Source: Amoebidium appalachense (lineage: Eukaryota > Protista > Ichthyosporea). From it: DNA of 64,000 nucleotides. The stretch spans positions 4,400,159 through 4,464,158 of the forward strand of contig CAVNZM010000010.1 of assembly GCA_963693365.1 (NCBI GenBank). Reading direction: 5' to 3'. This document shows, piece by piece, positions 3,101 through 9,100 of the stretch; position 1 is the stretch's first letter; the number at the start of each line of letters is the position of its first letter. The translations under genes were made by a program, and so were the position numbers. The notes beneath the pieces were generated by a model. The model saw only the letters and a list, made by a program, of their open reading frames with translations. It was not told the origin of the DNA and made no database searches.

Positions 3101-6100
3101 TTGGGATAGGTCCAGTGCTCACTTTGTAAGTGGGGATGGTGGTGGTTGGCCTTGGTTGGGTGGAAGAGGTATCGCCACTGGATTTCCGAGTCTTTAGGGG
3201 TCGCTGGTAGCTGCGGATCGGACGGTTGTCTGAATCGCTGTCCCTGTGTGTGGGTGCGCGTGTGCGTGCGCGTGCGCGTGCGCGCGCGCGTGTGTGTGTG
3301 TGTTTCTGTATGTGTGTGGGTGTGGGTGTGGGTGTGTGGGTGTGTGGGTGCGCGCGTGTGCGTATGTGTTTGGGGTAGGGGAAGGAAGGAAAGGAGGGGA
3401 AGGGAACGAGGAGGAGAGGGGGAGGGGGTGGGGGAGGGGGTGGATAGGAACGGCCGGTGAGCATGGGAGAGAAGTGATAAAGACGAGGAGTTGCTTGTAT
3501 ATCAAATGGTTTGCTCAGATATGGTAATAAAATGCAAACAAAGACATTCAATTAGTTAAATCCCCCCCCCCCCCCCCCACCCACCCACCCACCCAGGAAA
3601 AGAGGGAGGTTGACAGGAAGGAAGGGGCAAGAGGGGGTGAGGGGGGGAGAAAGAAAGGTGCAAGATGGGGGGGGGCGGGGAGGAAGAAAGGTGCAAGATG
3701 GGGGGGTAACGGGAGGAAGAAAGGTGTGCATGATGGGGGGGAGGTGGAGGAAAAAAAGGGGCAAGAGGGGGGGGGGGGGGGAGGGGAATGTGTAGTGGTG
3801 GGTGGTGATAGTCGAGGGGGGGGGGGGGGGGGGGAGGGGAAGGGAAGATGGTGAGGGGAGAGGGGGGAGGGGGGGGGGGGGGGGAGGGGGGAAGGGGAAG
3901 ATGGTGGGCGGGGTTGTGTGTGGTGCGGTGATAGTCACGCGAGGGGAGGGGGGAGGGGGGGGGGGGGGGGGGGAGGGGGGAGTTACGTTGACTCTGCAGC
4001 CCGTTTCTCTGCTTGCCGCACTGGAGCACGCTTTGCCACGCCGAGGCTTGAGACATTTGAGGGAAGCTGCTCAATTTTTCCTTTCTTTAAGCCGGAACCG
4101 ATCAGAAAGTAGTCAATTACACACCTCCCCACCTCGTCCAACTTGGTGTACTGGTTGTTAATTGCCGTCCGGATGCTCTCGATACGTACGTTGACAGGGA
4201 GAGTAGTGTCGAGAGATATCTCAATGGGTTTGACGTCTGGAGCGTAGTCGAAACGAGGCATGGATGCTACGTTGACCAGAAAAATACGGTGCTTGGTGTG
4301 GGAAGCTCTGGCCGGGTGAATGTAGTGGAGTGCAGGGAGCGACCTGTTGAAATGTTCATGATGAGTTGGATGTGTGGGATGTGTGGCATGAAGGGAGAGT
4401 GGTGTGCAGAGGAGGGTCTTGTGTGTGGGTGACGCTCAGGTTTACCTTCTTTTTCCATTTTCTTCCACACATTTTTCTCTTTTTTTAATCACGGGGAGGG
4501 AGGGGGGGGAGGGGGGAAAAGGGGGGGGAGGGGGGGGGGGGGAGGGAGAGAAAGCAAAACAAGAATGAGTCACAGGGAAGAGAGTGACGGGGAAAAGCAA
4601 GTGGAAAGTAGTAAAGGGGGTCTTGAGGGCCCGCAGAGGGGGGGGGGGGGGGATGGGTGGAAGGGCAAGAAGCTGTCTAGGTTGAGCTATGGGATTGCGA
4701 ATGGAGGGAGTTAGGGGAAAGTAAAAAAAGGGAAAGAAATATCTCGGCTGCTATGTGGTGGGACAAGCAAAAACGAGCTACACAGCATGGGAGTAACAAG
4801 AAGTCAGGGTGGGACTCGTTTGCGGGCAGAGGGCAAAGTGAGCATTGTTGCACCAGTAACAGTATTGCACTCCTCTCGTGCCGAGAAAAAAAACATGTGT
4901 ATTTGACATTTCAGTAGCAGTTGTTTGTGTCTGTGCCCCCATAATCGTTTCCTTTCATTAGACCAACTACAACTACGATGATCATTAACACCGAGGCGGG
5001 AGAAGGAGGGGGAGGGGGAAGAGGGGAAAGGGGGGAAGAGGGAAGAGGAGGAGGACGGGGGGGGGGCAGGGGAGGGGGGGGTAATTGATTACCTCTTTAT
5101 AGTGCTGAGGTGATTTTCTGATTGCTTGGGGCCAATAATGGCCAATCTTGCAGACCACTCGATAGTTTTGCGCAAAAGATCGACAACGTCAGGGTGTCCC
5201 TGGTATGTCCGAGCAAGTTCCATCATCTCGGCATAGATCCTCTGGGTGGTCCAACCTTCCTCCGCCCGAAATCCCCTAAATATCGGAAATTTTCGTGTCA
5301 GTGTGAGCGGAATTTAGCTGAGAGAAACCCTTTACAGAAAGGACTCCCATATATGTTGTTCTTCTTAACGTTTTCTCTCTCGCCCGTCAGGCATGTGTTG
5401 AATTGAGTGATGCTTCTTCATGGCTACCCCCTCCCCCCTCCCCCCCTTTTGACCCATTTGCTTCCCTTCTTCCGTCCCAATAACCCCCCCCCCCCCCCCC
5501 CCCCTCCTCCCCCCCCCCCTCCCGCCCAACACTACACACACACACAAAAACATATACACAAATAAATAAAGACCGAGGCAAATCAATCAATCAAATCCCC
5601 CCCCCCCCCCCCCCCACACACACACACACACACAAACCCCATCATCCGATATCCCTATCGAGCCCCCCCCCCCCCCCCCCCCCCCCCCTCTTCCCCCCAC
5701 ACTCTCCCTCTCGATCTCTCCCCTTTTTCCCCAACACTCCCTCTCTCCTTCTCCCTCCAACTCTTCCACATCCCTCCTTCTCCCTCCCTCCCTTTCACTC
5801 CCTCCCTCATTCTCTCCCTGCCTCCCTCTTCATCCTGTCCCATTTATTCCATCCCTCTCCCTCCCTGTCTCTCGTTCCCTCTTCCTCCCTCTCCCTTTCA
5901 ACCCCCGCATTTCCCTATGCTGTTCCCCTCCCACTTTCCTACCTCTCAACTTAATCCCTCCACTCCTTCCTGCCCCTCAATCCCTCTTCCATCCCCTCAT
6001 CTCTATCCCTCTTTCCCTCTCTCCCAGCCATCCCCTCTCCTCTCTCCCGTTCTGATAGTATAACATCCACATGTAAAACCATATTCAAGATCCCGTCATG

Positions 6101-9100
6101 GAATTTATGCTGACCATTCACACACATGATACTAAATACCAACCAAAGCCACAATGTGCACACGCAAATTACTACACCCACCGAATCTGCATTGCAATCT
6201 CCACAACCCTGTTTATCTCCTCCATGGGCATATCGAATCTTCCCTGGGCCAGCCGGACAAAGGCAAGGTTTGTGCGGTCATTCAACACCTTGGCCATGTC
6301 TTGCTGCTGCCTCGCCCACACCCCCACAAGAAACTGCTGCCCACAACACAGCCACGAATTCTGTGTTTGTGCATGAATGTGGTTAGTGTTGCTAACAGGA
6401 TGAAGAGTGTGCCAAGTTGGTGAGGGTTATGATGAGCTAGGGATGTACATGGGAGTGGGCCCCCCGGGGGGAGGAGGAGGGGGGGGGGGGGGGAGGCGGA
6501 AGGAGGGGTTGGGGGTGGGTGGGTGGGTAAGGAGGGGAGGGGGGGGGGGAGGGTGGCTGTGGTGGTGGTGGTGGTGGGGGGGGGGGGGGGGGGGGGGGGG
6601 GGGGGGGGGGCTGAAGGAAATGGGTACCAGGGGAGAAGGTAAATGGAATCTACACACGTGTGCACAAGTAAGGGAAGGTTGGCGGGGTTGGTGCAGGAAA
6701 CCCTTACGGAAAAATGAGAAAACGAAGATGGTATGGGGTAGAGGGGGTCGAGGGGGTACTATACTATGGTGGGTTGTAGGTGTGACGGTGGAATAGATGT
6801 GACAGGCACTTGTGAGTCACCTTGTACAGATACAGGCATGGAGTGCAAGTCAGGGGAGCATTCATAATTTGCACGTGAATATGTTCGTGTCTCTTAAATC
6901 TGTGAAGAATGGTGTAAAAAGTAATCGGGCTTCTCGATTTGGAGGTGGAGCCACATGCCACATCGATCCACACGCACGTGCCACCCACCCAATGCACATG
7001 GTAGTACATCCACGCGGACACCCACACGAGTGCGCACGCACGCACACACACACACACACACACACACACACACACACACACACACACACACACACACACA
7101 CACACACACACACACACACACACACACACACACACACACACGTGCACACAGACTTACACACACACACACACACACACACACACAAACTCATTCACCCACC
7201 CACACACCCACCCACCCGCCCACCCACCCACCCACCCACACCCACACCACACCCACACCCACACACACACCCACACACATGCATCCACACACCCACACAC
7301 AGACACATGCACATACCATGGTGGCCTGTCCAGCATAGGCGTAATGTTTTTCCAGCAATGTCAAAATGTCGCAATCGGCCCCCATATGCCACAAAATGGG
7401 GAAGCCCAGGTGGCGGCTGATGGCCACCGGGCCACGAATCGGGTCGAGAGTTGGCCCGAGCACAGGGATAGCTCGAACCGACTTAAGGCCTGCAAGATCC
7501 TCCATGATTCTTGAGAGCACGGCTTTCTATGGTGGGTTGGTAAGAATACGATATAAAAAGGGTGAGATTTGGATGTGGACATGTATCTATTTAAATCACC
7601 ACTCAGATCTTCGCACAAAGATCTCTTTGATTGTCATCGGCAGAAACCCTTGCACGTGAAAGATGTACAAAGCCCAAAAAGAGCTGGAAATAATGCGCCT
7701 TGAGTAGGAAAGAGAGGAAAAGTTGTCGGACCCCGCCGCGACCCCGGGGGGGGGGGGGGGGGGGGGGGGGGGGGGAAGATGAAAGAAACATCGGGCACAC
7801 GACAAAACTGTAAGTCCAGAGGGACACCTATCGATTTGCTGGTCAATGTATTGGTGATCATGGGCAGGGGGCAGAAGGGGGTAAGGGTTGGGGTGGGGAT
7901 GGGGGATGAAAAGGATATACATTCCGCGCCCGGGGGGTGGGGGGGGGGGGGATATTGATTCCTTCTGCATGGCTGAAACTGGGGGAACTTGGCTTAAGGG
8001 AAAGGGGGGTGAAGAGAGTGGTGGTGGTGGTGGTGGTGGTGGTTTTTTTTTTTTTTTTTTTTGGGGGGGGGGGGGGAGATTAAACCCTTCAATTAGTCGG
8101 AAGAATTGTATTTATGTATTTATTTATTCTGTTTGTTTTTTTTTTGGGGGGGGGGGGGGGGAGGGGAGGGGGCGAGGCGGGAGGGGGAAGAGGGGGAGGG
8201 GGGGGGGGGAGGAGGGGAAGGAGAGGGGGCAAAAGGGGGGGGGGGAGGGGGGTGGAGGGGAGGAGAAGGGGAGGGGTATATGCACCATGCAGTAGGTGCC
8301 CATCACAAAGACCGTGGCTTCACTCAGACACCTTGCCTCTCTGTTTGGTGCGGGAATGAGGGTGTGGGGCCCGTATTGCTCCCACTCCTCGGGGCTGATG
8401 AAGGGACAAACGACAAATACCGGGCCAGGAGTGTGATTCGGGCCATCCTGATCCGAACCGTTGAGAAACTTATGGGCCGTCTGGCACAATTCCCTTTTCA
8501 GCTCCTCTGGCATGGTCACGTCGTACCCGTTTGAACCCACCGTGATTTCAATGGATAGGCCCAGGTCAACCGTTTCCGTCTTGATCGGGTCGGGTCGATT
8601 GAGGGTATTCGAATCGGGCTCTGCCATGCTAGCGAGTATAGAGGTTGAAGCGGTGCCACTTGCGCCTGTAGGTGCCAGGGGAAGCGGGACCGCAAAGCTT
8701 GTCAACTCCTGAGGGGGGTTGGGGGGGGGGGGGGGGGGGGGGGGGGGGGGGGGGGGGGGGGGGGGGGGGAGGGGGGGGGGGGGGGGGGGGGGGGGGGGGG
8801 GGGCAGAGATGAGGATGAGGGTCCAAATGTGTGTGTAGAGGGGTTGGAGGGGTTGGAGAGGTGATGGTGGTGGTGGTGGGGGGGGGGGGGGGGGGGTGTG
8901 AAACGGGCAGAGGGAGGGGGGGTAAAGGCGGAAGGGGAACAGGGAAAAGGAGCCCGGGTGGGTGGGTGGGTGGGTGGGTGGGGGGGAGGGGGGGGGGGGG
9001 GGGGGGGGGGGGCAATAGTCTTGTACAAAAGGTCAAAAACATAGTAAGAAGAAGAAAAGAAAAGCTGCTGAGAGCGCTGGCGGGAGGAGACGGGGGGGGG

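What the first reader, a model, noticed from the sequence alone, without database searches (positions are those of the whole stretch)
3987..8440. C-terminal half resembles a GREB1/TAGT-family GT-A glycosyltransferase with a degenerate DxD
Seen in order in all paralogues: P-[IV]-F-hydrophobic strand; a helix ending RHLG[FY]PxxW followed by one Asp (WHMGADC / WQMGTDC / WEIRVDC); a LA[IV]I[GT]P strand; then H-x-RIFLVNV...DY (disrupted in C). From recall this parallels the GREB1 C-terminal series (PxFxP; WPFxxxxDDxC; YALLG; HxxxFxxLNV...Y). Established: that family includes the kinetoplastid base-J glucosyltransferase and phage DNA-base glycosyltransferases. Inference: with one DxD Asp and no clear downstream acidic motif, it may be a pseudo-enzyme binding sugar-nucleotide or modified nucleic acid, coupled to the GTPase.
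Basis: inference. Interest (0 to 1): 0.75.

Follow-up and report, generated by a model that had tools for sequence, protein, structure and literature searches.

The report
GTPase fused to divergent glycosyltransferase-like domain
A spliced, conserved eukaryotic gene present in three copies joins a likely GTPase to a domain that probably descends from the sugar-transferring enzymes that modify DNA in phages and trypanosomes, but the match is partial and whether it still transfers sugar is untested.

Summary
The gene is real. Copy A has 15 exons and 14 GT-AG introns, and exons 7-15 read as 945 aa without a stop. An RNA contig joins exons 14 and 15. The C-terminal domain is under purifying selection (dN/dS 0.19 A-B, 0.26 A-C). 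TAGT membership is not established. Whole-domain profiles from two phage TAGT sets (128 and 59 sequences) gave no significant score (HMM -0.9 to -2.1 bits; hhalign P 0.11-0.37). One segment, Arg-helix to acidic strand, matched in register (0 of 300 shuffles with one profile, 17 of 300 with a second, elsewhere with the third). In that register the family's invariant Asp-Asp is Gly-Ala, Gly-Thr or Arg-Val. No homologue was found, no GREB1 or JGT sequence could be fetched, and the spliced domain could not be folded. Odds: TAGT-derived about 0.65 (active via D-C-D 0.37, pseudo-enzyme 0.28), unrelated fold 0.30.

The parts
8286..8708 (-). Copy A exon 10: low-complexity linker, then the start of the alpha/beta domain (P-V-F strand 8423-8409; candidate first GT-A strand I-P-x-x-x-R 8363-8340)
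7317..7526 (-). Copy A exon 11: conserved Arg172 (7436-7434), helix, hydrophobic strand, Gly-Ala at the family's Asp-Asp register (7382-7377), invariant D-C-D (7376-7368). Residue numbers count from the start of exon 10.
6182..6360 (-). Copy A exon 12: conserved strand, then a likely helical insertion relative to phage TAGT
5093..5275 (-). Copy A exon 13: helix and LA[IV]I[GT]P strand (5145-5128)
3987..4343 (-). Copy A exon 14: strand at 4291-4268, invariant Y-A-P-D (4246-4235), invariant V-G-R-C; donor at 3987 joined to exon 15 in an RNA contig
2619..3243 (-). Copy A exon 15: Ser/Thr/Pro/Arg-rich tail, dN/dS 1.05 against B
13530..16594 (-). Copy A exons 2-5: likely GTPase domain (GxxGxGKS across the exon 2/3 junction; D-x-x-G in exon 5); dN/dS 0.23 against B; no profile hit on single exons
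9576..13035 (-). Copy A exons 6-9: region between the GTPase-like and C-terminal domains; the window lacks one G at 12626 that run X2 has
17646..17850 (-). Copy A exon 1: frame break near 17720 relative to B; in-frame Met at 17666
23992..28594 (-). Copy B exons 10-14 (82% aa identity to A; one-base frame break near 25262); the whole of B spans about 37886-22340
57050..61474 (-). Copy C exons 10-14 (52% aa identity to A; frame breaks in exons 10, 13 and 14); its 5' end lies beyond the window

Best explanation
The region encodes a conserved C-terminal domain, likely a strongly diverged TAGT-type GT-A glycosyltransferase, fused to a likely N-terminal GTPase, and it would still bind a metal and nucleotide-sugar through Arg172, D-C-D and the Asp of Y-A-P-D. 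Shown: the gene model, splicing of exon 14 to 15, purifying selection, the motifs, and one in-register segment match to phage TAGT. Inferred: the GT-A fold; the use of D-C-D as the DxD, two residues downstream of the family's Asp-Asp; and that the GTPase positions or switches the domain so that it transfers a sugar to a nucleic acid or protein target. The acceptor is unknown.
For: 14 GT-AG introns and a stop-free 945-aa splice of exons 7-15. RNA contig of run X21 lies on 4080-3987 and 3237-3153. dN/dS 0.19 over 356 codons (A-B) and 0.26 over 263 codons (A-C), against 1.05 in the tail. The family segment from the invariant Arg to Asp-Asp places best on the Arg172-to-D-C-D stretch: score 10.3 against null 3.7+-2.4, 0 of 300 shuffles, with the 59-sequence set; 17 of 300 with the combined set. 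Best local hhalign hits fall on the same strand in the same register. In the ordered-block test, two of three profiles put the first four blocks on I-P-x-x-x-R, the next strand, the Arg helix and the acidic strand, and the third pairs Y-N-E-D with Y-A-P-D. D-C-D and Y-A-P-D are invariant in 3 of 3 copies. The family's active-site series is R...DDD...EDY/F (bioRxiv 10.1101/2023.12.21.572611, passages).
Against: No whole-domain test is significant: hmmsearch -2.1, -1.3 and -0.9 bits; hhalign P 0.37, 0.2 and 0.11; ordered blocks reached by 7, 11 and 8 of 60 column shuffles and 4, 36 and 9 of 60 segment shuffles. Of 11 valid segment tests only 2 landed at the expected place. The strand 1-2 and strand 6-ED segments did so in 0 of 3 profiles each. 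The passing segment was chosen after I saw the resemblance by eye, and column shuffles are a lenient null. In the best-scoring register the Asp-Asp pair, invariant in 128 of 128 and 59 of 59 phage TAGTs, is G-A, G-T or R-V, and the Glu of E-D is Pro. Half of exon 11 is invariant, so D-C-D conservation is weak evidence. About 80 extra residues must be inserted after the acidic strand.
Confidence: 0.37

Rival explanations
1. The domain has the TAGT/GT-A fold but is a pseudo-enzyme. The family's Asp-Asp is lost, only the third acidic position remains, and the domain serves as a nucleotide-sugar, nucleic-acid or protein binding module for the GTPase.
For: The register that scores best puts Gly-Ala, Gly-Thr or Arg-Val on the Asp-Asp pair that is invariant in both phage sets. 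E-D is P-D. The first-strand Arg is shifted in C, and the Arg six residues before the last Asp is kept only in A. Purifying selection is compatible with a binding role.
Against: A literal D-x-D follows the strand in 3 of 3 copies, and an Arg and a downstream Asp of the R...DDD...ED series have candidates. The fold itself is unproven.
Confidence: 0.28
2. The domain is an unrelated, lineage-specific alpha/beta domain. The TAGT-like motifs are generic strand-helix patterns picked out by eye from about 350 residues.
For: All whole-domain profile tests are null. 9 of 11 valid segment tests land elsewhere. No Pfam, PHROGs or NCBIfam hit to a glycosyltransferase family on single exons.
Against: One segment beats 300 of 300 shuffles exactly at the family's nucleotide-sugar site. 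The profiles were phage-only and the query had three sequences, so sensitivity to a GREB1-like eukaryotic branch was low. Exon-sized pieces of 60-140 aa break the Pfam domain.
Confidence: 0.3
3. The three copies are decaying duplicates and the domain no longer matters.
For: Frame breaks in A exon 1, in B exons 6 and 13, and in C exons 10, 13 and 14.
Against: dN/dS is 0.19-0.26. A is spliced in an RNA contig and is open from Met 17666 once the slip at 12626 is allowed for. That break is an assembly slip by run X2, so some other breaks may be too. Those in B and C were not checked.
Confidence: 0.05

Closest known systems
Phage TET/JBP-associated glycosyltransferases (TAGT, Pfam PF20691), e.g. 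T6 beta-glucosyl-HMC-alpha-glucosyltransferase and the L024-like subfamily
   Same: Arg-bearing helix followed by G-[FY]-x-x-x-W-x-[MI] and an acidic residue in register; candidate I-P-x-x-x-R first strand; Y-x-x-D late motif. T6 TAGT is modelled as GT-A (PMC13216743, passages).
   Different: Asp-Asp replaced, with D-C-D two residues on; E-D is P-D; about 80-residue insertion; no significant whole-profile score; intron-rich eukaryotic gene fused to a GTPase-like domain instead of a stand-alone protein of about 260-290 aa.
GREB1 / GREB1L (animal TAGT-domain proteins)
   Same: Large eukaryotic protein with a C-terminal TAGT-like region (PMC6163654, passages). The strand series resembles GREB1's from recall only. 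GREB1 is reported to O-GlcNAcylate ER-alpha, with low in vitro signal (PMC7968844, section read).
   Different: GREB1 is fused to a circularly permuted SF2 helicase module, not to a P-loop GTPase. No direct comparison was possible.
Kinetoplastid base-J glucosyltransferase (JGT)
   Same: Same family by structure, with motifs R...DDD...EDY/F, of which Arg, a third-position Asp and a late Asp have candidates here.
   Different: DDD and ED are not met as written. No JBP or TET gene was recognised in the window (no whole genome held).
Dynamin-like / SLIP-GC (NUGGC)-type TRAFAC GTPases (recalled)
   Same: N-terminal GxxGxGKS and D-x-x-G motifs followed by a probably helical region.
   Different: No profile hit on single exons; no canonical G4 seen; C-terminal fusion.

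Membership tests
TAGT (PF20691) / GREB1-like GT-A | Score above the PF20691 or PF20267 (GREB1_C) cut-off | tested here: inconclusive
   No hit on 22 single-exon pieces; the spliced domain could not be handed to the Pfam scan. T6 TAGT itself scores only 35.8 bits at full length.
TAGT (PF20691) / GREB1-like GT-A | Significant whole-domain similarity to profiles of family members | tested here: not met
   Phage-only profiles: -2.1, -1.3 and -0.9 bits; hhalign P 0.37, 0.2 and 0.11. The eukaryotic branch was not represented.
TAGT (PF20691) / GREB1-like GT-A | Conserved Arg on the helix before the acidic strand | tested here: met
   Arg172 is invariant in A, B and C and in register with the family Arg; 0 of 300 shuffles with one profile, 17 of 300 with a second, placed elsewhere by the third.
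TAGT (PF20691) / GREB1-like GT-A | Asp-Asp-[Asp/Asn] at the end of strand 4 | tested here: not met
   G-A-D, G-T-D or R-V-D in the best register, against Asp-Asp in 128 of 128 and 59 of 59 phage TAGTs. A D-C-D follows two residues on.
TAGT (PF20691) / GREB1-like GT-A | Late [ES]-D-[YF] acidic motif before a helix | tested here: inconclusive
   Y-A-P-D pairs with Y-N-E-D in one block test (2.0 bits), but strand 6-ED segments land elsewhere in 3 of 3 profiles.
TAGT (PF20691) / GREB1-like GT-A | GT-A fold | tested here: inconclusive
TAGT (PF20691) / GREB1-like GT-A | Nucleotide-sugar-dependent transfer to DNA bases or protein | not testable with these tools
   Needs an assay.
TRAFAC (dynamin-like) GTPase | G1 GxxxxGK[ST] and G3 DxxG | tested here: met
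   Read from the splice model of A and matching exons of B; the motif definitions are recalled.
TRAFAC (dynamin-like) GTPase | G4 [NT]KxD and a profile or fold match | tested here: inconclusive
   No canonical G4 seen; single exons gave no family or PDB hit.

The most novel reading that the evidence does not exclude
This is an undescribed eukaryotic family in which a dynamin-like GTPase carries an active TAGT glycosyltransferase with a shifted D-C-D site. It would glycosylate foreign or own nucleic acid in a GTP-dependent way, for example as a tandemly expanding antiviral or DNA-marking system in a protist without known base J.
Probability: 0.12. Interest if true: 0.8.

Novelty: new variant of a known kind. 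Interest (0 to 1): 0.45.

Why it matters
In the papers I could read, eukaryotic TAGT domains appear only as kinetoplastid JGT and animal GREB1, and GREB1's substrate and activity are still weakly supported in vitro. A GTPase-fused branch with a rearranged acidic motif would show that the family spread further in eukaryotes. It would also give a natural test of which acidic residues the fold needs. No paper with such a fusion turned up, but the founding TAGT paper was not held and may list one.

Tried and rejected
Homologue searches found nothing usable. Exon 14 against longer proteins: 0 of 394 candidates. Exon-11 profile against 1.84 billion representatives: 3 hits; two are repeat proteins by sequence, and the third matched in 41 short stretches and was not printed. 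Viral contigs: one 15-residue match (L003), treated as chance and not followed. Metagenome scans: 0 of 70 and 0 of 87 candidates. TAGT alignment against longer proteins: 0 of 6638, so no eukaryotic TAGT was retrieved. ESM Atlas: exon 14 top score 0.92 (unnamed and DIOX_N clusters, not pursued), exon 11 below 0.9; no TAGT cluster listed. No solved TAGT structure by sequence. PF20267 in 401 bacterial genomes: one sub-threshold hit in an unrelated-looking protein. PF20691 was not found in phage Nigel and only in the centre genome of a second phylum sample. AlphaFold2 on exon 14 and on the 3' part of exon 10 gave low confidence and no informative fold match. A complex prediction of four exon-coded pieces gave no verdict (score 0.01), which is not evidence either way. 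No RNA holder was listed by the run search; RNA runs X22 and X24 showed no exon cover and X21 only one junction contig. Two fam2 rows were mis-anchored, dropped and redone. The GTPase and tail dN/dS rows were mis-framed and redone. Rejected as the first GT-A strand: P-[IV]-F, because no block test placed strand 1 there and no Arg follows at +4.
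Full report
Setting. The window is eukaryotic DNA of about 53% GC with poly-G and microsatellite-rich introns. No whole genome is held. Three paralogues lie on the minus strand: A (17850 to about 2619), B (37886 to about 22340) and C (from beyond 64000 to about 57050). A BCS1-like gene lies on the plus strand between B and C (the BCS1 label is recalled).

Gene model. Copy A has 15 exons joined by 14 GT-AG introns of about 380-1050 bases. Exons 7-15 give 945 aa without a stop, and exons 1-6 give 382 aa from the Met at 17666. 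The finding covers exons 10-14, and 3987 is the exon-14 donor. One RNA contig of run X21 (185 letters, depth 3, RNA status a guess by the tool) lies on 4080-3987 and then 3237-3153; the six letters between fit 3243-3238. This confirms the exon 14-15 splice. DNA runs X1 and X2 list no indel in 3900-8800 where they cover it, but exon 11 had no cover in that call. X2 has an extra G at 12626 that repairs the exon 6-7 phase, so the assembly has homopolymer slips. A frame break in A exon 1 and those in B and C remain unchecked.

Selection. Between A and B the exon 10-14 domain has 82% identity and dN/dS 0.19 (356 codons). Between A and C it has 52% identity and 0.26 (263 codons). The GTPase-like exons give 0.23 and the tail 1.05. 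The domain is therefore constrained.

Observation. The motifs are in the stated order. It also missed an invariant Y-A-P-D in exon 14. B deviates at two positions in the exon-14 strand and C is frame-broken there. Since 35 of 68 exon-11 positions are invariant, invariance alone carries little weight.

Family test. Single exons hit no glycosyltransferase family in Pfam (22 pieces), PHROGs (10 pieces) or NCBIfam (10 window pieces). No homologue was found and no TAGT cluster appeared in the Atlas. I therefore built TAGT profiles. PF20691 is TAGT and T6 ggt is a member. From it I reached 120 proteins plus 8 seeds. A second subfamily came from a 163-bit PF20691 match in 1 of 401 genomes (59 sequences after filtering). 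No eukaryotic member could be fetched. Against the spliced domain, hmmsearch gave -2.1, -1.3 and -0.9 bits and hhalign P 0.37, 0.2 and 0.11, all non-significant. In some searches the best local match fell on the acidic strand in one register; it fell elsewhere. Seven ordered blocks scored above the null mean but were reached by 7, 11 and 8 of 60 column shuffles and by 4, 36 and 9 of 60 segment shuffles. In segment tests, the stretch from the family's invariant Arg to Asp-Asp placed best on Arg172 to D-C-D: 0 of 300 shuffles (59-sequence set), 17 of 300 (combined set) and elsewhere with the 128-sequence set. The other 8 valid segment tests landed elsewhere; one of them reached 7 of 300 at an unexpected place. 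The passing segment was tested after I saw the resemblance, and column shuffling is a lenient null. I count it as modest support.

Active site. [quoted passage not shown] In my sets Asp-Asp is in 128 of 128 and 59 of 59 sequences, and the late Asp in 128 of 128 and 57 of 59. In the best register the window proteins keep the Arg, replace Asp-Asp by G-A, G-T or R-V, and have Asp at the third position. With a two-residue shift, D-C-D is a complete DxD at the end of the strand (that GT-A enzymes bind metal and nucleotide-sugar there is established knowledge, recalled). Y-A-P-D could supply the late Asp, since it pairs with Y-N-E-D in one block test. The data cannot choose between the two registers.

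N-terminus. Exons 2-5 carry GxxGxGKS across the exon 2/3 junction and D-x-x-G in exon 5, in both A and B. This is a likely TRAFAC GTPase by motif. No profile hit was obtained and G4 is not canonical.

Literature. GREB1 carries a TAGT domain fused to a permuted SF2 helicase module (PMC6163654, passages). It is reported to O-GlcNAcylate ER-alpha, with low in vitro signal (PMC7968844, passages, one section and supplement legends). Its TAGT alignment figure was not readable and may bear on the register. T6 TAGT is modelled as GT-A (PMC13216743, passages). PMC13390438 was seen as passages. PMC4111573, PMC9472816 and the others were seen as search listings only. The founding TAGT paper was not held; what I know of it and of the GREB1 sequence is recalled. 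No paper describing a GTPase-TAGT fusion was found. An earlier unchecked note, e1-9701352, reports such a fusion in another genome. I could not test it; it made the fold reading somewhat more plausible to me but is not counted as evidence.

Verdict. This is a real, spliced, constrained gene family with a GTPase-like N-terminus and a C-terminal domain that probably derives from TAGT (about 0.65). It is not filed as a member, because the profile test and the Asp-Asp feature were not met. Active through a shifted D-C-D 0.37, pseudo-enzyme 0.28, unrelated fold 0.30, decaying copies 0.05. Novelty: new variant of a known kind. Interest 0.45.

Noticed in passing
window 12626 and 10469: Run X2 has one extra G at each place. 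The one at 12626 restores the exon 6-7 phase seen in B and C, so the assembly has homopolymer slips.
   Followed up: yes
window 17646-17850: A exon 1 has a one-base frame break near 17720 against B. An in-frame Met at 17666 would still give a full protein about 60 aa shorter. X2 lists no indel there, but its cover of the exact place was not shown.
   Followed up: partly
window 25262, about 32640, about 61260, about 61190, about 57840, about 57220: Frame breaks in copies B and C; real decay or assembly slips not resolved.
   Followed up: partly
window 42957-51363 (+): Ten-exon BCS1-like AAA ATPase gene (label recalled), with no frame break seen by eye.
   Followed up: partly
window 53540-56692: Tandem duplication of about 1.57 kb at 98% identity, just downstream of copy C; it may hold C's last exons or be an assembly duplication.
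   Followed up: no
window 714-973 and 20149-20349: Imperfect inverted repeats of about 260 and 200 bases (88% and 81% self-complementary), each downstream of a paralogue; possibly small transposons.
   Followed up: no
window 148-620 and 21547-21947: Similar stretches downstream of exon 15 in A and B (68% identity) suggest a further short last exon.
   Followed up: no
window 11896-13821 against 31597-33609: A and B share about 70% DNA identity across introns as well as exons, which points to a fairly recent tandem duplication.
   Followed up: no
L116:1081-3769: Vibrio phage Kuja has two adjacent proteins of about 450 aa that both match the TAGT profile strongly and are annotated as hypothetical.
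   Followed up: no
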